From contig OX597817.1 in assembly GCA_951406725.2 (NCBI GenBank), positions 145,638,001-145,702,000 of the forward strand: a DNA stretch of 64,000 nucleotides, written 5' to 3'. The notes under the pieces are model-generated. The model had not been told where the DNA came from, did not search any database, and saw only the letters and a program-made list of their open reading frames with translations. Below are positions 1-58,744 of this stretch, in pieces. Source of the stretch: Octopus vulgaris. Its lineage: Eukaryota. Both the position numbers and the translations under genes were made by a program. Position 1 is the stretch's first letter. Each line of letters opens with the position of its first letter.

Positions 1-761
1 AAGTTTGGTAGGCTAATATACCCCATTATAAATGTTTAAATCAAACCAATTTCATGTCCTTTCTGAAGATTATTAAAAAATTACTAAAACTTTGGTCTCA
101 CTGTATCAGCCTCACCATTCAACAGAAACTTGTGAGAAGCCATAGGCATATCTCTTTCCGTAAACCAAACCAACAATAATTATACAAAGAAATATGTATA
201 TAGCCATTTTGACCAAATAGAACTTGACTGTTACTGAATCATTATATCTGCTGCTGCTGCTGCTTATTATTGCATTTTTTTATAATCCTATTTTCTTCTC
301 ATAAAGCCATAATTTAATTAAAATTACTCTTTGTTTCACAGATTTACTTTTACAGTAGATGTTCCATATTTCTCCTTTTGAGTTTTATTTATTCAGTATT
401 TGCACTACCTTGTTTTTGGTCCTTACTCAGCATCAAGTCCTTTTGGTTTTATTTTTATTGTTTATAAATTAAGTGCTGTACTTAAACAATTTTTCAGCAC
501 TTCATCTTTGATTACTGGACCATTTACTGTACAAAAAAATATGAAGGATTACATTTGTTTTAATTATCATCTACCTTTAGGTGTTTATGAAGAATATTAT
601 ACTGTGATGGATTTTACATATCACACTTGCAGATTTGAATAAATTAGAATAAATTCAAATTTTTAAATGAAATTTTAATTTTATTTTCATTTTCTTAAGT
701 ATTTTCTTCCAGATTGTAGCATTATATCTTATGGAGAATTTTTTTTTTTTACCTTCATTAG

Positions 762-987
762 AAAACAAAAGGAACTGGAAGAAAAATTGATAGAAGAGGA
801 AGTAGCTAGGCGTGTAGAAGAGCTTGTGGCTAAAAGAGTTAATGAAGAGCTTGAGAAACGTAAAGATGAAATTGAAGCTGAGGTGATGCGACGGGTAGAA
901 GAAGCAAAACGAATAATGGAGAAACAAATGCTTGAAGAATTAGAAAGACAACGCCAAGCTGAACTTGAAGCACAACGTCAAAAGGAG
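762..987 (+). CDS. ARGLU1: ARGLU1 internal coding exon (upstream exon lies outside the window)
   Basis: Poly-T tract and TAG acceptor at 759-761, GT donor at 988. Encodes [75 protein letters not shown], recognisable as the ARGLU1 Glu-rich coiled coil. Confidence 0.96.
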
Positions 988-1331
988 GTATTGCAAAGTT
1001 TCAGCTTTTATTTTTCTTTGCTGTTTTCCCCTCAGTTTGGTTTACTTTTCATATTTTACTCTCCAGTTCCCTAAAGAAAAACATCAGTAACTATTGTATT
1101 GATTTTTTTTTTTTTTTTTGTCTTTTAAATTCTAAAATTGATAATCACTTTAGGCTACATTTTGTTTTAAAATGTCTTGTCAAAGTCCTGAAGCTATGTG
1201 TGTTTTGGTAATCTTGTAAATTGCTTTTCACTTTAAATTGTTATGGCTTTAGTTCCATTAAAATTTTCTTTTTACTATTATATATCTACTTAAGTAAACT
1301 ATAATGGTGTGTGTGTGTATGTATATATATA

Positions 1332-1376
<45 letters not shown>

Positions 1377-4300
1377 TTAAATTAGGTCAGCTGTATTGTA
1401 GTATTTTCATAATTAATAGTTAATTAGTTAATTATTTTCCCAAAGAAAGGCTTATTATCTAATTCTATATTAAAAAATGCCAAAACCATAATTGATTAGG
1501 ACTTGGTAACACATTTACTAAATTCATGTAGGTATTTTAAATTGGGAAGGAAAAAAGTCTTTTTTTTTTGTTTTTATTACAAGGAAGAAATTAAGAGTTC
1601 TTATATTTCTTTCTCTCTACTTCCTATGATAATTCATTTTTAGGTTGATATAGTTAAAAACTTTATTCTGAAAAAAAAAAAAAATCATCTCTATCCTGAA
1701 TGTGAACTGTTTTATCGAACATTTCTGTTCCTAACTCTCTTGTTACCGTATTTCTAATAAAATACACTGCCTGTCAATTTTTGGATTAATTTGAAGGATT
1801 TAGTAAAAATATAAGTATAACATTCTTATAACTTATATCTCCTGCATAAAACTACATGGAGGGTTCAATTTTAAATATAAACAACTTAAAAATGAACAGA
1901 TTTATATTAGAGGCAGTTTGGTGTCCAAAGAGTTTAATTTAAAGAAGGAATAAAAGTACTTCCTTGTTGATATTGTGTGACAGTTCTTACCACACACACA
2001 CACACGTGCAATTTGTATTTTGATCTTTTCTAAAAAGGATTCTCTCAGAACTTTAAAACACAATGTAGGAATACTTTTGAAAGAAACAGTAAACATTACA
2101 AAGCAAATAGTATTGACATTATTAAATTGCATTTTGATTTCCAATTCACAAATCATAAACTTCTTTTCAATAGTGGAAAGAGTTTGATGTACATAATTTA
2201 AAAGAAATAAATTTTCTTTTAAAATAAAATCTCATCTCTTTTCACATGTATCTTATTTGCACACAGTTTTTGATTGTTCACAATTCTTGTATTATAGATG
2301 GTTTTTATCTTTTTTTTTCTCCCACTTCTTCAATCTGTGAAAGTTCAATAATAGAAATGATAATTATTGACCTGTATAATTTAAAATGTCATTTATGAAA
2401 AATAAATGGCTCTGGCTGACAAATTAAATGTTGGCTCTATAATTTAATGCTAGCCTAGTTCTGTAAAGTTGTAAATGGAATGAAAAATGTGAGGGGAAAT
2501 AGGCAAGGAATCTTTTAACTGGCAGTTTATCCCCTTCCTCTCTATAACATTAAATTTGTCTTAAAATATTTAATATCTATGTTGGTTTTTCTTTTCAATT
2601 CCTTCCAATAAGATGGTTGCAGTGTTCCTTTCCTCAAGGCTGTCTTAAAGATTTCAATAGATATTTTATATAATATCCTGGTTCCCTTTTTCTATTCAGG
2701 ATGATTTTTTGTTAGTTAGTTTCAAGTTTTTAATTAATCAAGAGAAAATTTTGATTTCCAAATTGTTTTATATATTCTTACTCCTTTTAATGGAATTTAA
2801 AACAACACCAATTACAACTGATTGCATATTTTCCTTTTTGTGGTTTTTGCTGAATTGGTCAAAATTTATCAACATTATTTTAGCAGTGAATATGGCCCAG
2901 AGCCCTGATTCATATCCTATTCAAATTGTTTCAACTTTGCAATAATATTCCCACTTTTACTGTCCTTTTTTTTTTTTTTTTTCATTGCAAACATTTTTGT
3001 TAGCATTTAACAGTCTTGTTCTTCATAAACCTCAAGCATTTTATTGATAACATCATTATAATTTTCAGTTGGCTCAGTTAACAATCTTGTCTTATTTTCT
3101 CTCACGTTTTTCAAACCAAAGTCTATGTTATCTAAATCAACTTATGTTAATGTCTTAATTATTTGTATTTGTTAGTTTTCTGGTTACTTCACTTGTGAAA
3201 CTGGTTATGTACATCTTCTGGTGTTGAAGCTGTTTCTCTCTATTTTGTATGAATGGTTGATGTAAGTATGCAAGTGGCTCTTTTTTTTTTTTTTTTAGTT
3301 GACAGCAAAATTAGAATCTGCATCAGTGAAGACCATTTATTTTATTTAATCTTTTAAGTTTCATTTTGTTTGTAAATTTGAGGATAGTCTCTCTTTAGTT
3401 TGAATGGCTGATGTATTACACTACTTTTGCTTCACATTAGTCTTCTATCATTGGTAGCTCTATTCTGACATAATTGAGTGCTACTCTGTGAAATGAGGAA
3501 TATTTGTTTTAATAATGGTTGGAATGATACAGATTCTATCTTCTTCCCAAGTAGAAAATCTTGTTCAAGAGACAGCTTTTTCCTTAAAGAAATTGTAGAA
3601 ATTCCTTAAGGCTTAAATCAACGAGTTTGAATTTCTTTTTATTTCAATTTGATAGGAAACTTATAAACTGGAATTGTTTGATTTGTTGCAATACATATGT
3701 TGGTTTCTTAAAATTTGCTTCCTCTTTGGATTGCAGAACTCAAACTAAACTCAGAGCTTTGCTTAACCATTTGAAGTTTCTGATAAATGATAGTTTCTGA
3801 ATGGTGTCATAGGTGCAATGTCATGGTACTGTTTTTATGTCTTGTATCCATCTGCTTTTGCATTGGCTTTTTTTTTTTTTTTTCCATCTTCTCATTTATT
3901 GGACTTTTGGCTGCTGAACTGTACATCCTTACCAATATTGATACAACGTGCTAAACAGTTATATTGTTGCTTTCTTTTTTTTATTTTATGAAGAATAAGT
4001 TACATGCTGGAAAATATAAAAGAGCATGGAAACTGTAATGTATTTGAACTTCAGTTTTTATTCTGAAAGGATGAATATATATCCTAAAATTAACAATTGA
4101 AATTTTCCATTTTCGTTTACATAACTCAAAAATTGAGTACATTTCCAGCTGAAAATGTTATTGGCAGTTGGTTATTTAATCCAACAGGTTTCCAATTTGT
4201 GAAAGATTTCTTTAAGCAGAAAGCTGTTTCTTGACATCTCTTTGTAAGTATTGTTATTGATTGAGCAATTCTGCTCTCATGTGTACATGCTATATTTTGG

Positions 4301-6733
4301 CCACACATATATCGGCATAAGTTAACTGGAACAATCATTAGGTTGCTAATGCCGTCAGACCTAATGAGAACATTTTTTTACAGTATTCAGTGATGCATTT
4401 CCAGTAAAATAAACCATACCATTGGATTCCTGCTGAAAAGATATAAAAGATTGGATATTCACACAGCTGAGGAAGTATGTAAAGTTTACACAGCCATAAT
4501 TCCCTTCTGTCCTTGCTCCCTTAAATTGCTGTTTGCCCATTCTGATCTAAATGGTGCGTTCATCTCTTGTACTTCAGGGTTTAATATTACACTATTTAGC
4601 TTTGAATTTTTCTTGACGTTATTAATAACATCTTTTCACAGATTGTCCATTCCATTGCATTGCAAGTTCTTGGCACTGGTACTTAGAATATACTTTAAAA
4701 TACATGGAATTTCTTTATCAGATTTTCATTCACTCTTTTTTTTTTCTTTTTTCTATATACTTCAGAATAAGTTTTGGTGTGCAATTCAAAACTCTACATG
4801 TTAAGGGGCTAAAACAATTTTCAAGATGGTTATTTAATGAATGTAGTTTTGACCATTTTCAAACAGTTTTAGGAAATTCTCTGCAAATTTCAGCTTGTCA
4901 GCCAATTTCTATTCCATATTGTTTGTTGAGTGTTGCTTCTCTCTTTTTAGTTTCTTTTTGCTCCTGTCTTTTAATTTTATATTTACATTGTTTCTTTAAT
5001 TTCCCATCAAACTAATGTTAAAAGAAAATGAAAGAATTGTTTTGTATAGAGATTGATATTTAGACCAAAATCTCTCTTAATAGTGTGTTAGTATTTTTTA
5101 GTAACAGGAACCCTTATCTAAGAGTGTGCAGATTGCTTCCTTCTTACACTAACCTGGGAATGTCTGTGTTTTGATATATTGGTTTATAACAAAGGCAATA
5201 ATCATATGCTTGCCTGATTATCATTTAGTATTACTAAAAGCAACTTCTATTGTAGCCATTGCCAATTACGACATCTATTTATCAGTATAATTTCTTTTAT
5301 AACGAATGTTAATTATTGAGAGAGGAGAATAAAAGTAAAGCACCAAGTCTTACAATCTTAGGAATTCCCTTTTTTTAGAAATCAGTGGTAGTTGTAGTAG
5401 TTGTAGAAAAGTTTTGTTAATGCCACTTCTGACACTTTCACTTTAGAAGACCTAAAGGGATTTTGTTTTGGGTCTTTGGCCAAATCCTTTTCTTCTGTAT
5501 TATGTATCGACTGCTGAAACAGTTAATACAAGCGTCGTCAATTTTTCGCTGGCCACCTCCTTATAATTACTTGCCCTTTATTACCTGCTGCTGCTGCTAC
5601 TACCACTGACTGGTGGACAGTTTATTTGGTGTCTAGTTGGGGATTTTAATGGCTTTGTTTAAATATGAGACAACTGGCTGCTGCTGTGAAGTAAACAGTT
5701 TGAAGAGGAAGCATTCCTGGAAGGATATAATCGTGTCATGTGCTACAGATGTGTACCTACCTACTCTTGGGTATGTAGAAAGATACTTTTCTATCAATGA
5801 CGTCACATTATCTGTCAATTCTCCGTGCAATTTGTTTAAACTATTCTTGGAGTGTAGTAGAAATTACTGCCCACAATGCAATATGTTGGGCTAATCGATT
5901 CCTTATCTCTAGGAATATGCATAAAAGTTCAACCAAAATGCTAATTCCATACTTATTTTTTTCTAAATTCATGTTTATTATAAAATGTACATTTTTTTTA
6001 TATAATTAATTTTAAATTCTTTAAAGTCCAACTGGTATGTATCTTTTTATTTTGACCTTTTTTTCCCTCATGACTCTAACATATAAAAAGAAAATATTTA
6101 TAATAATGTTGAGGTTGAATTGCTGTTAGATCTCATGCTGATTCATGTGAAAAGGTTTGTAACATTGCCGCTTGTGTTTTTCTTAATTTGTTTCTCAATC
6201 TTTTTTTTTTTTATTTCTCCCTCTTGCCTTTTAAAAACACAAACAATTGTTACCAATGATCTAGCTCCTTTGTTTTTGTTTTTTTTTTCATCAAGAAACA
6301 TGATTCGGTCATCTGTATTTGACTAAACTATTTTTTTTTTCTAGAGTGTTGTTTGAATGTTTGTCTAATGTGATGTGTAGCCTTTTGTAAATTAAAAAAA
6401 AATAACATCAAAAAACATATTTATTATCCCTTGCCTTTCTGTGCTGACAACAACAACAGTAATTTGAAACACCTTTGTTCTCACCCAGCTGTGCTGATGG
6501 CCACTGGTGGTGGTGGTGGTGGCGGCGGTGGTGGGGGGTATAGTGGTTGTGTAACTGCCGCTGGTACTACTGCTGTCGCTGCTGCTACTGCTACTCCTGC
6601 TGCTCTACGTTGAACTCATCCACGGCCTGTTACTTATTGTGTCATAGCTTACAGCTGATTATTTTATTCCTCGTGTATTATACAGTTTGTTTGTTATGCA
6701 CCTTCGTATGAACATGGTTATCTGTCTTTGTAG

Positions 6734-53364: not shown

Positions 53365-53617
53365 TTGATACACACTTATATGTATAAAAAATATTTTAGT
53401 CTACAGTCAACTTTTATGCACATTGGCAACTGGTATAAATTATTATTTTTAATAATTTTTACCCTTTACACACACACACACACATACACATATATATGTA
53501 TATATATATATCATCATCATCATCATCATATATATATATTTCAATATGTGACCGTGTGTGTATCATAGGTAATTTTCTTTCTCCGTTTTCCCTTCCTTGG
53601 ACCTTTTCTTTTTCTAT

Positions 53618-53652
53618 GTTTCTGATGAAGAGCTCTGCTCGAAACGTTAAAT
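53618..53652 (+). ncRNA. Minimal type I hammerhead ribozyme (Penelope/retrozyme type)
   Basis: gttt-CTGATGA-a-gagc-tct-gctc-GAAACGTT-aaat: intact core, 4-bp stem II, palindromic AACGTT in place of stem III. Confidence 0.82.
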
Positions 53653-53749
53653 CCTCCTTCTTTCTTTCCCTTCCTGAACGTCCATAACACTATACTTGTT
53701 CCACATCCTCACGTTGTTGTATTTTCTCTTTGTGTTTTCATGTTTGGAT

Positions 53750-53810
<61 letters not shown>

Positions 53811-53987
53811 ATACAGTATGGATGGATTTTCGAAGTCCAATAATACCCTGCACACCTATTTGATTATGAAGATTTACAAGCATACTTTCCCAGTGAAACT
53901 CAATATACCTACCATTATAGATAATACCAAATGTTCCTTTTCGGACTTTTCATAATGTGATACAGGTCTTTGGTATAGCAATTGCAT

Positions 53988-54079
53988 GTGGCTGAAGAAA
54001 GCTTTAAGCCATCTCTTATGTCAATTATACATTGATGTAAGAATAAGTTGTTTTATAAAGCTTGAAACACGTGTACCGC
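53988..54079 (+). ncRNA. Type I hammerhead ribozyme with long stem II
   Basis: gtgg-CTGAAGA-aagcttta...taaagctt-GAAAC-acgt-GTA-ccgc; distal stem tcttatgtcaat/attgatgtaaga; stem-loop III is the palindrome ACACGTGT. Confidence 0.85.
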
Positions 54080-55629
54080 GACATCCTTTGTGTTCTGTTT
54101 TTTATTTCATTTGATATATATATATACACACACGTATCAATCATCATCATCATCATTATTTAACATCCATTGTCCATGCTGGCCTCAGTTGGGCGGTTTG
54201 ACCAGGGCTGGCAAGCTGGAAGGCTGCACTGGACTCCAGTCTGATTTAGCATGGTTTCTACAGCTGGATGCTCTTCCTAACATCAACCACATGTAATGGA
54301 TACTTTTACAAGTCACTGGTGCCATTTGTGTGGCACCAGTATCTGCCATGACTGCGATTTTACTTGGCTTGATGGGTCTTCTTCTCAAGTACAATATAAT
54401 ACCAAAGGTCTTAATCATTTGTCATTGCCTCTGTGAGGCCCAACACTCAAAAGAAAGTTTTCACATGCCACTTTGTGTTAGCTACAGAATATCCCTAACA
54501 GTGAGGCAGGGGGAGATGTTAGGTTATGTATTATACATGTCTGTGAAAAGACAAATGAGAGCCTCTTGTAATTAGAAACCAAGGAGGTGTGGGGGTGCAT
54601 AGGAGGCAAGGCAGCTCAGTGAAGACCTAGTTAAAGACTGTGAAGGAAGATCTAGCAAATAAGGGCCTGAGAGCAGGCTCATGAGTGGATGGAGATCTCA
54701 GCCTGATGCTCCAGGGTATACAAGAGCTACTGACTGTCGGTTATGACAGTTGATCCGATTAACAGAACAACCTGCTCATGAAATAAATATGCAAGTGGCT
54801 GAGCACTCAACAAACACACATACCATTAATGTAGTTCTCAAGAAGATTCAGCACAAGGCTGGTCCTTTGAAATATAGATACAACTCATTTTTGCCAGCTG
54901 AATGGACTGAAGCAACATGAAACAAAGTGTCTTGTTCAAGGACACACTGCTCCACTGGTTATTGAACTCATGACCTTACGATCATGAGCCGAATCCCCTA
55001 ACCACTAAGCCACATACACCACATATTAGAGCTTCTGTAAAGAGAAAGCAAAATGGGTTCTTGTTTTAATGCAATTTTGATAATGTTAAGAATACAAACG
55101 AAATCGAAATCAAATTCGATGACTGGCATCCGTGCTAGTGGAGTGCTAAGAGCACCATCCAAGCATGATCGTTGTCAGAGCAGCAAACTGGCTTCCATAC
55201 CGGTGGCACGTAAAAAGCACCATTTGAGTGTGGCACATAAAAAGCACCATTACCAGTGTCGCCTTACTGGCATGTGAAAAAACATTTGAGCGAGGTCATT
55301 GCCAGTGCTGCTGGACTGGCTCCTGTGCAGGTGGCACATAAAAACACCATTTGAGTGTGGCCGTTGCCAGTACCACCTCGTGCCAGTGGCATGTAGAAGC
55401 ACCCACTACACTCTCGGAGTGGTTGGCATTAGGAAGGGCATCCAGCTGTAGAAACTCTGCCAGATCAGATTGGACCCTGGTGCACCCATCTGGTTCACCA
55501 GTCCTCAGTCAAATCATCCAACCCATGCTAGCATGGAAAGCGGACGTTAAACAATAATGATGATGTATGTGGATGGTGAGGAAAAATCTGTTAATTTAGG
55601 AATGGAAAGTGGGTTGTGATGCAATTTCA

Positions 55630-55915: not shown

Positions 55916-58744
55916 GGAGTAGAGGAAGAATGACAATAAGAGAAGGGAAGAAAAAAAAAAAACAAAGTGGAAGAGAGAAAGGAACCAGAGTGAGTGAGTG
56001 AGGGAGAGGGGGAAAAAAAAGGGGGAAAATCAGTTTGGTGAGAAGAAAAATTTGGAAATTTTCTACAAAATAAATTTTCAACTGAATAAAAATAAATAAA
56101 TAAATATATGATCAAGTGGACAAAGTAGATATGCAAGCTTTTAAGGAATATTTAAAGAAGTGTAAAGAAATGCTGGTCATTTTTTGGCAGCAGAATGATC
56201 AGTTTTGGGATTAAGAAGAATGAAAATCTATTGATAGAGATGCGAGTTTGATTTAGTTTTTGTGTGCAGTTTTTAATACAACATAAAATGTAGTTTTGAC
56301 ATGTCTACACAATATATAAGTAAGCTAATATCAAAGACGGTTGCTTGAGACAGCTGACAACTGTTGCTTGTAATGTCTTCTTCACTTCTAGCTTTCAACG
56401 CTGCTTTTCTTTTTTTTTTCTGCTTTACAAGACCTATCTTTGATTAAAGCTTGGTGCCTGGAGCTGTGGAATTCATAGGTGTTATTTCCAGGAATGTGGC
56501 TCCAAAGACATGGCAGTCCCAATGTTAAGAATATCAAAGTAGTTTTTATGATGTCAGAAACAGCATTTAACAGCTGTCCTTGTGTATCTTGTGCAACATA
56601 AACAAATGTTCCCTGCCATATTTAACATTATATCAGTTATACAATGTGCCAAGGTAGAGAAACTCAGGTTTTCTTATCGTTTACTGTGTTTGTCATTAAT
56701 TAAAATCTTAGGGCAGCAAGAATATTTATCGAAAAAATTCTTAGTTACCAGTGGTGTAGCGAGAAAGAAAAAATTAGTCAATAGACTATATATTATTCAT
56801 AGAAAAATACAGTGTACATTCAAACACAAGAGATACCCAATGAATAGGATATCTGACTCACTAGAAAGAGCAGTTAAACTCCAAGCCACTAATTGTAATT
56901 CCGAAAGTGATTGAAAAATAAAAACTTTTACCTTAATCCTAGACCCTACAAGGTTTCTGCAGACTTAAATACAGATTGAAATATAATAATTTCAGTTTAT
57001 ATCTGGTGCTGCTTCTTCAGTAGGTTGCCAGGACTGAACACATACACACGGAGCGATAAATAACCTGCCACGTGTCTATAGGTTCTAATTTTTTGAATCC
57101 ACCGCGCAAATGTGGAACTCAACTGGCAGTAAATGAATAAATTGCCGATTTTCTTGCAGGGTCTAGGATTAAGGTAAAAGTTTTTATTTTTCAATCACTT
57201 TTGGAATTACAACAATTAGTGGCTTGGAGTTTAACTGCTCTTTCTAGTGAGCCAGATATCCTATTCTTTGGGTATCTCTTTTGTGTTTGAATTTACTGTG
57301 TTTGTGTAGACACACGTATACACACACAAAAAATAACTGAATCATATAAAGATTTATATGAGAAACTTTAAAAAATGGGCAATGGACACAGCATTAACAT
57401 AATGGAAATAAGTAAAGTTACGAATATATGTAATATTGGTACATATTGATGATAAAGATAAAAATAATAGATTGACTGAGATATTGAAACAAAATAAAAT
57501 ACTAGAGACAATCTGGAAGTCTATCTCTATTCATCCATATCCAAACTAATAGTGCTGCATGAGTGATCTTGTTCACATGTAACTATTTAAGTTACAACAT
57601 TGTAAGATAATCAATATTTTTTTTTTATTAATCTCACTGACAAACAGAACTCATTGCTTTACTCTTTGCAATCAGAGAATACCAGTCAATGAATGATCAT
57701 CTCCATTGTTTCAGATTGGTCAGAAATGTATTTTAAATGTTACCTTTTCTTTCGTAACAGCAAAAGAAAAACAGTTAGAATTGGGTATCAAGACCTGGGC
57801 ACAGATTCAGCTTACCAGAAGCTTTGTTTCTACCCGTTACTGATTGCTTCCAAATAAGTAATCAACTTAACCATAGATCTTTGTTTTCGTTTTTTTTTTA
57901 TTGTTGACAATATTTAGATAGAAAGCATGCATTTTAAAGATATAGCAAAAATCTAACAACTTGTCTTCTTCAAATCATTAGACCATGATAAATTGTCATT
58001 TACAGACAAGCTGATAATCACTCGAGTCATTAAAACATATTTTGTGGCACATTAAATTCGCTTCCATAATCAGATTTTAATTTTTTTCTTACTAAGCACA
58101 AGGCCAGTTTTAGCAGAAGTGGGACACCTTTAAATCAACCCCAGTATACAAGTAGTATTATCTCTTTTTTTGATGTATTAAAGACAAAGTTGACTGCATA
58201 AAATCAAACCCTGAACAGCGACATAATGAATCGATTCTTGTGAAGTCTTCTGCTCCAGATTTTACTGAATTCGTCATCTTCATAGTCATCTTATTATCAA
58301 ATGATTGATAAGAGAACACTGAAATATGAATACCTTTTTTCTTCAGTCATAAAATGTTTTGACATTTTACAAGAGGAGTTTAAAGAACAATTTCTGTTTT
58401 ATAACAGCAGATTATAAAAAAATATAAAGGACAAACATAAACTCTTGTTTTATAGGAGTTGTAAGTTGAAGCCAAGTATATTTGGAGAAGGTTTTGTCCC
58501 AACAAGTTTATCTGCTTTTTACTTGTTTGATCACAATTTCCTTGGTCACTCATCAAAAAAGGTTACCTGATGAGTTCTACCCACTTTAGACAATAAATTT
58601 CAAATGATGCCTCTGTTAATATTCATTTAAATTATGCAATGAAATTCATTGATTCTGTTTCTGATAAAGAAAAGAAAAAAATATAAAATTTTAATTTTTT
58701 TTTACAGATATAATTCTAAATAAGAATTATTTTCCATTTTGATA
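55630..58744 (-). other. Probable ~3.1 kb LIN37 3' UTR
   Basis: Largely free of the common SINEs and U-rich on minus; AATAAA on minus at 55657-55652, just before repeats resume. Confidence 0.45.
56809..57299. mobile_element. Fold-back element or MITE with ~145 bp inverted arms
   Basis: 56809-56952 is the near-perfect reverse complement of 57153-57299; ~200 nt spacer; CAGT...ACTG ends. Confidence 0.88.

What the first reader, a model, noticed from the sequence alone, without database searches (positions are those of the whole stretch)
53808..54113. Well-preserved long-stem hammerhead ribozyme in a ~300 bp element lodged in a (TA)n microsatellite
Seen: CTGAAGA (53992) and GAAAC (54064) joined by an 8-bp stem II (aagcttta/taaagctt) with a further 12-bp distal stem, a palindromic stem-loop III (ACACGTGT), a GUA cleavage triplet and stem I gtgg/ccgc. 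The element has no ORF and has TA repeats on both sides. Established: type I hammerheads with tiny or palindromic stem III occur in Penelope-like element pseudo-LTRs and non-LTR retrozymes, and often cleave as dimers. Inference: a non-autonomous, microsatellite-targeting ribozyme retroelement, possibly an uncatalogued cephalopod family.
Basis: partly seen in the sequence, partly recalled or inferred. Interest (0 to 1): 0.85.

Follow-up and report, generated by a model that had tools for sequence, protein, structure and literature searches.

The report
Long-armed hammerhead of octopus Hydra retroelements
This 307-base piece is the broken-off 3' end of a protein-coding Penelope-like retrotransposon, and it carries a predicted self-cleaving hammerhead ribozyme whose second arm is several times longer than in described relatives, which is likely why standard ribozyme searches miss it.

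Summary
The hammerhead is real, but the element is not a 300-bp non-autonomous retrozyme. [quoted passage not shown] At least 649 copies of this family keep the ribozyme core. Copies end at two fixed points past the predicted cut, form inverted pairs and sit in (TA)n, as PLE insertions do. Five related families in this genome (three compared in a tree) carry a type I hammerhead with a palindromic helix III and a 51-86 nt helix II domain. Published Hydra hammerheads have 11-25 nt there, and Rfam finds none of these. Stems covary between subfamilies and families, while single copies decay neutrally. The window copy has five changes from the family norm that are predicted to misfold it. Cleavage, probably as a double hammerhead or with protein help, is untested. 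Verdict: new variant of a known kind.

The parts
53809..54115 (+). 5'-truncated 3' end (3' UTR / pLTR) of a Hydra-clade PLE, family F1; ends at the shorter of the two family end points
53987..53991 (+). helix I, 5' arm (one C-to-T change from the family norm at 53989)
53992..53998 (+). hammerhead core CUGAAGA
   Evidence: CUGANGA in the families
53999..54063 (+). 65-nt helix II domain: proximal stem, internal loop, distal hairpin 54014-54042
54064..54075 (+). GAAA core, palindromic helix III (54067-54074) and GUA triplet; predicted cut after 54075
54076..54080 (+). helix I, 3' arm
53754..53808 (.). (TA)27 tract, likely the insertion target; it also flanks a separate upstream repeat
54116..54125 (.). 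short (AT)5 3' flank

Best explanation
The stretch is the 5'-truncated 3' end of a Hydra-clade Penelope-like retrotransposon whose longer copies encode a reverse transcriptase and a C-terminal endonuclease, and it holds a type I hammerhead, predicted to self-cleave, with a 65-nt helix II domain and a palindromic helix III. Shown: the link from ORF to 3' UTR to ribozyme, two fixed 3' ends, inverted pairs, (TA)n flanks and covarying stems. Inferred from known PLE biology: the endonuclease nicked (TA)n DNA, and RT began internally on an uncut or re-ligated tandem transcript about 40 nt past the ribozyme cut site and stopped after about 300 nt. Inferred for the ribozyme (about 0.6): two hammerheads, at the two ends of a pLTR-ORF-pLTR transcript, pair through their palindromes and cut after GUA, probably helped by the element's protein. 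This would release a unit-length RNA starting about 200 nt before the start codon. The window copy is a lone, decaying copy predicted to be misfolded and inactive.
For: ORF link: L035 reads tail/5' UTR, ORF (about 1888-4828, broken), 3' UTR, ribozyme; 8 of 21 long stretches picked by the 3' UTR had this ORF upstream. Conversely 12 of 18 stretches picked by the endonuclease had the ribozyme region downstream on the same strand. Hydra motifs are present. Ends: of 85 pieces in 63 loci, 33 end 36-52 nt and 44 end 108-126 nt past the cut; all 20 loci with inverted pieces have one short and one long end. Copy number: 649 exact pattern matches, 0 for the reversed control. Covariation in F1: 97.6% of cells paired, 4 pairs with changes on both sides, 11 such cells against 4.4 in shuffles. 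Unselected test: 15 of 21 motif clusters have helix I of 4 bp or more, against 11 of 420 mismatched partners. Helix III hairpin +2.4 kcal/mol, intermolecular duplex -5.8 to -10.3. With 12-nt flanks the double hammerhead is the lowest-energy dimer for 4 of 7 copies tested. Elements with a hammerhead at both ends, 4.65-4.72 kb apart: L190, L191, L193, L195, L200.
Against: No cleavage or expression data. With 40-nt flanks the active dimer is the lowest-energy fold in only 1 of 7 copies. Among inserted copies the core is no better conserved than its surroundings (1.79% vs 1.76% and 1.54% vs 1.55% rare changes); this fits neutral decay but gives no copy-level support. One covarying pair (CG/TG/TA in helix III) and some others could come from CpG decay, and the number of pairs with double changes is not above shuffles (68 of 500). 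No intact F1 ORF was seen among the scored hits, so short F1 copies may have been moved in trans. Genomic 3' ends do not fall at the cut site, and in the anole PLE cleavage was dispensable for insertion in vitro (PMC11167929). Pfam gives only a sub-threshold RT hit and no GIY-YIG hit.
Confidence: 0.8

Rival explanations
1. An independent ~300-bp non-autonomous retrozyme or SINE-like element that spreads as small circular RNA.
For: 3' pieces far outnumber ORF-bearing copies (1459-1873 candidates, against about 20 F1-type endonuclease hits at the top); no intact F1 ORF seen. A different long-helix hammerhead family in this genome does form 492-bp tandem arrays.
Against: 5' ends are ragged and run into a shared UTR and ORF; F1 neighbours are inverted, with no monomer-length tandem repeats among 100 listed matches.
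Confidence: 0.04
2. Same element, but the ribozyme cuts as a monomer: a 2-3 bp helix III stabilised by tertiary contacts between the long helix II and an extended helix I, or by the element's protein.
For: Published Hydra hammerheads are drawn with 3-4 bp helix III; the anole PLE ribozyme needs protein; in L224 the active monomer is the lowest-energy fold.
Against: Helix III stays self-complementary through sequence change across the families, which a monomer does not need in its loop; the hairpin is unstable.
Confidence: 0.3
3. The motif is kept for a non-catalytic job in the element's RNA (protein binding or positioning the two RT start sites), with little or no cleavage in vivo.
For: Both 3' end points lie downstream of an uncut site; metazoan PLE hammerheads cut poorly in vitro; no RNA ends were found at the anole site.
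Against: The full catalytic core and a cleavable triplet are kept across families whose UTRs no longer align.
Confidence: 0.15

Closest known systems
Hydra-clade PLEs, including Hydra-1_Obim of Octopus bimaculoides (PMC8557442)
   Same: Single ORF with RT and C-terminal endonuclease, RW and DKT-type motifs, CxCx5C linker, CxxC and CxH, (TA)n insertion, 3' type I hammerhead, inverted 5' copies and tail.
   Different: Listed Hydra elements are 1.1-3.0 kb (Hydra-1_Obim 2507 bp) with 11-25 nt between the core halves. These are about 4.4-6.3 kb, with Asn-rich ORF insertions (842-1091 aa), 1.4-3 kb 3' UTRs, a 51-86 nt helix II domain and a tail of about 75 nt rather than 30-40. The printed Hydra-1_Obim RT motifs and hammerhead differ; it was compared by eye, not aligned.
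Minimal and palindromic-helix-III PLE hammerheads (PMC4209133)
   Same: Type I topology, short helix I, palindromic helix III, mostly single copies from truncated PLEs, proposed dimer mechanism.
   Different: Helix II there is 6-8 bp with a small loop; here it is a multi-stem domain of 51-86 nt.
Non-LTR retrozymes (PMC7229834; bioRxiv 10.64898/2026.07.22.740005)
   Same: Type I hammerhead, PLE-derived, low GC.
   Different: Retrozymes are non-coding tandem repeats of about 300-bp monomers; F1 is dispersed, 5'-truncated and linked to an ORF.
PLE-X1_sMoe and PLE-X1_sTam hammerheads of spike mosses (PMC8557442 file S2)
   Same: About 48-53 nt between the core halves, flagged there as non-canonical: a precedent for long helix II in PLEs.
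   Different: Endonuclease-less plant elements that target 28S rDNA.

Membership tests
Hydra-clade PLE | Single ORF, RT followed by C-terminal GIY-YIG-type endonuclease | tested here: met
   the F1 ORF is broken in L035 and open for 842-1091 aa in sister families. The endonuclease was recognised by motif; Pfam has no hit.
Hydra-clade PLE | RWK motif near the N-terminus | tested here: met
   RWK in F3, RWR in F4, RWA in F1 and F2: a variant in F1.
Hydra-clade PLE | DKG changed to DKT | tested here: met
   DKT in F2, F3, F4; DKI in the broken F1 copy L035.
Hydra-clade PLE | CxCx5C linker, CxxC and CxH around the endonuclease end, no CCHH | tested here: met
   All three motifs in F1-F4; absence of CCHH judged by eye from the printed proteins.
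Hydra-clade PLE | Insertion into (TA)n | tested here: met
   Most 3' ends run into TA repeats.
Hydra-clade PLE | Generally shorter than 3 kb with a canonical hammerhead | tested here: not met
   Units of 4.65-4.72 kb in F3/F4, about 5-6.3 kb estimated in F1; helix II 51-86 nt. A typical trait in the paper rather than a strict criterion.
Hydra-clade PLE | Groups with named Hydra references in an RT tree | tested here: inconclusive
   Quick tree: F1-F4 form one clade (99) inside the unlabelled homologs and apart from three other PLE RTs of this genome; no named Hydra reference was in the tree.
PLE (general) | 5' truncation, inverted 5' copies, pLTR and optional tail from two RT start sites | tested here: met
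Type I hammerhead ribozyme | CUGANGA, GAAA and NUH core with helices I-III | tested here: met
Type I hammerhead ribozyme | Self-cleavage after NUH | not testable with these tools
   Needs a bench assay or raw RNA ends.
Non-LTR retrozyme | Short non-coding monomer in tandem repeats | tested here: not met

The most novel reading that the evidence does not exclude
Octopus Hydra retroelements have evolved a distinct hammerhead architecture in which helix II has grown into a 50-86 nt functional domain, a binding platform for the element's protein or an A-to-I-editing-sensitive switch, that licenses dimer cleavage; such long-armed ribozymes escape current descriptors, so PLEs reported as lacking a hammerhead (for example the 'half-core' Naiads, including Naiad_Ovul) may carry one.
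Probability: 0.25. Interest if true: 0.7.

Novelty: new variant of a known kind. Interest (0 to 1): 0.45.

Why it matters
The role of PLE hammerheads is open: they cut poorly alone and were dispensable for insertion in the one in vitro system. This genome offers young families with long open frames and a ribozyme at both ends, plus a graded series of natural variants, so dimer and protein-assisted models can be tested directly. A long helix II defeats Rfam here and exceeds the 7-17 nt spacer used for core searches in PMC8557442, so animal hammerhead counts and 'no hammerhead' calls may be too low. The window copy itself is an ordinary decaying fragment.

Tried and rejected
Rfam scans of the window region and four element loci gave no hammerhead hit, only microsatellite matches to miRNA models. 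A Neptune-type ORF upstream in L089 was first taken as the parent; it is a separate family with its own 3' end, and of 60 loci only the source locus itself linked to F1. Poseidon-type and other RTs near copies are separate insertions. Sequencing runs: no RNA holder listed. Contigs of four runs under four organism codes cover the element, but show no ends or strand. The cross-family DNA alignment misaligned helix II and had one row at wrong coordinates; it was not used for counts. One search crashed and was rerun. The careful tree did not finish; the quick tree is reported. One further long-helix family (L088 type) could not be tied to an ORF within 1.5 kb, so it is open whether long helix II occurs outside the Hydra lineage. 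No earlier scan notes existed.

Full report
Observation. Rfam has no hammerhead hit. A rule-based scan found 3 hammerhead-like motifs in the window (shuffle mean 0.02) and 152 in the fetched loci (0 in each of 5 shuffles).

Genome context. G000 is 2.8 Gb in 227 contigs. The closest named homologs of the element's protein are from Argonauta hians at 39-44%, so the host is likely an octopus (inference). A search with 53809-54115 gave 1459 candidates; the 40 scored were 91-97% identical. A pattern for the F1 core matched 649 places, and the reversed control none.

The element is larger than 300 bp. Copies extend upstream to variable points and often carry an inverted piece at the 5' side. Walking upstream through an AT-rich and TG/TA-rich 3' UTR reached L035, which reads tail/5' UTR, a broken ORF of about 2.9 kb, 3' UTR with insertions, ribozyme. 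Eight of 21 long stretches picked by the UTR had this ORF upstream. Twelve of 18 stretches picked by the endonuclease had the ribozyme region downstream on the same strand. I estimate 5-6.3 kb for F1 from those spacings. An early candidate parent, a Neptune-type ORF in L089, proved to be another family.

Clade. The proteins have RW(A/K/R), DKT (DKI in the broken copy), CxCx5C, CxxC and CxH, the features given for the Hydra clade in PMC8557442 section 11. F1-F4 form one clade in a quick tree without named references. No intact F1 ORF was among the scored hits: the two RT hits at 95% or more have open frames of 230 and 261 aa, and the longest F1-type endonuclease frame is 657 aa with stops. Sister families F2 (RT 88-91% identical, 842 aa), F3 (about 980 aa) and F4 (about 1090 aa) have long open frames. 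F5 has a 908-aa frame, with the Hydra endonuclease upstream of the ribozyme in 6 of 8 stretches. Intermediates link F1 and F2.

Insertion signature. Of 85 pieces in 63 loci (five segmental duplicates and one repeated locus dropped), 33 end 36-52 nt and 44 end 108-126 nt past the predicted cut, and 8 elsewhere. All 20 loci with inverted pieces have one short and one long end. F2-F4 show the same two classes, and the tail is the 5' UTR leading to the start codon about 200 nt past the cut. This matches the two internal RT start sites and tail described for the anole PLE (PMC11167929). It also means the template spanned an uncut or re-ligated site. The window copy is of the short class.

Ribozyme. 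All five families carry CUGANGA, GAAAC and a GUA (GUC in F5) triplet with a self-complementary helix III and 51-86 nt between the core halves, although the F1 query no longer aligns to F2-F4 UTRs. Helix I changes in register between families (GCGG/CCGC, UUAG/CUAA, UCGG/CCGA). Within F1, 97.6% of cells pair and four pairs change on both sides; relatedness and CpG decay weaken this test. Without selecting for helix I, 15 of 21 motif clusters have 4 bp or more, against 11 of 420 mismatched partners, and 16 of 21 clusters have a helix II region of 36 nt or more. Among inserted copies the core decays at the background rate, so selection acts only in source lineages. The helix III hairpin is unstable (+2.4 kcal/mol) while the intermolecular duplex is -5.8 to -10.3. 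With 12-nt flanks the double hammerhead is the best dimer fold in 4 of 7 copies, with 40-nt flanks in 1 of 7. The window copy has five departures from the norm, and its active dimer lies 9.6 kcal/mol above the free fold, against 0 for the typical copy L031.

Mechanism. Most likely the source element was transcribed through a pLTR-ORF-pLTR tandem. Its two hammerheads, 4.65-4.72 kb apart in F3 and F4, would pair through their palindromes and cut after GUA, probably with the element's protein (inferred, about 0.6). Insertion is by nicking (TA)n and internal RT initiation (established for PLEs, inferred here). The window copy is a lone truncated product, antisense to and about 7.7 kb upstream of the most 5' deacetylase exon seen, with no sign of a host role.

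Literature seen. PMC8557442: passages, section 11, supplement part 2 and supplement search hits. It lists one octopus Hydra family, Hydra-1_Obim (2507 bp), and Hydra hammerheads with 11-25 nt between the core halves by my count; two spike-moss PLEs have about 48-53 nt. PMC4209133: parts 1-2 of 4 and passages. PMC11167929: parts 1-2 of 4. bioRxiv 10.64898/2026.07.22.740005: part 1 of 5. PMC13282606: passages; 31 Penelope-like families, no 'hammerhead' or 'ribozyme' in the main text, supplements not read. PMC7229834 and PMC3088659: passages. Four searches found no paper describing long-helix-II hammerheads in cephalopod PLEs; the library lacks most subscription journals and I could not check Repbase or Dfam.

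Verdict. Real ribozyme motif, known class of element, new structural variant. Interest 0.45.

Noticed in passing
L077:2333 (+); G000:C1:7117125-7121266, C2:144141883-144144206: A different hammerhead family with a 68-nt helix II region, 99% identical between copies, forms arrays with a 492-493 bp period and inverted junctions: a young retrozyme-like repeat. Parent PLE not found.
   Followed up: partly
L192:7709 (+); L359-L366: Young Hydra family F5 (copies 99% identical) with the longest helix II region seen, 84-86 nt, and a 908-aa open frame in L360.
   Followed up: partly
window 53541-53753 (+), core at 53622: A separate multicopy repeat ending at the same (TA)27 tract, with a minimal hammerhead (12-nt helix II region); likely another PLE 3' end.
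   Followed up: partly
window about 56930-57030 (-), core at 57020: A second long hammerhead (56-nt helix II region, 12-nt self-complementary helix III) of another family, with an inverted partner segment.
   Followed up: partly
L003:1618-1860, run X1: One contig of a run guessed to be RNA shows many A>G differences on the ribozyme strand (16 A>G places in X1 against 6-7 in the other three runs); possibly A-to-I editing, but one contig and no matched DNA.
   Followed up: no
window 16734-46170 (-) and about 760-990 (+): Exons of a histone deacetylase gene (HDAC11-like by recall) on the minus strand and an ARGLU exon on the plus strand.
   Followed up: partly
L089:4700-6930; L091-L150: Abundant Neptune-type PLE family with two 3' end points 44 nt apart and no standard CUGANGA core near its 3' end, only an altered core-like motif.
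   Followed up: no
L088:4762, L183:7162 (-), L013:423 (-), L082:2447, L098:3386: Further unrelated hammerhead families with 43-59 nt helix II regions whose parent elements were not identified.
   Followed up: partly
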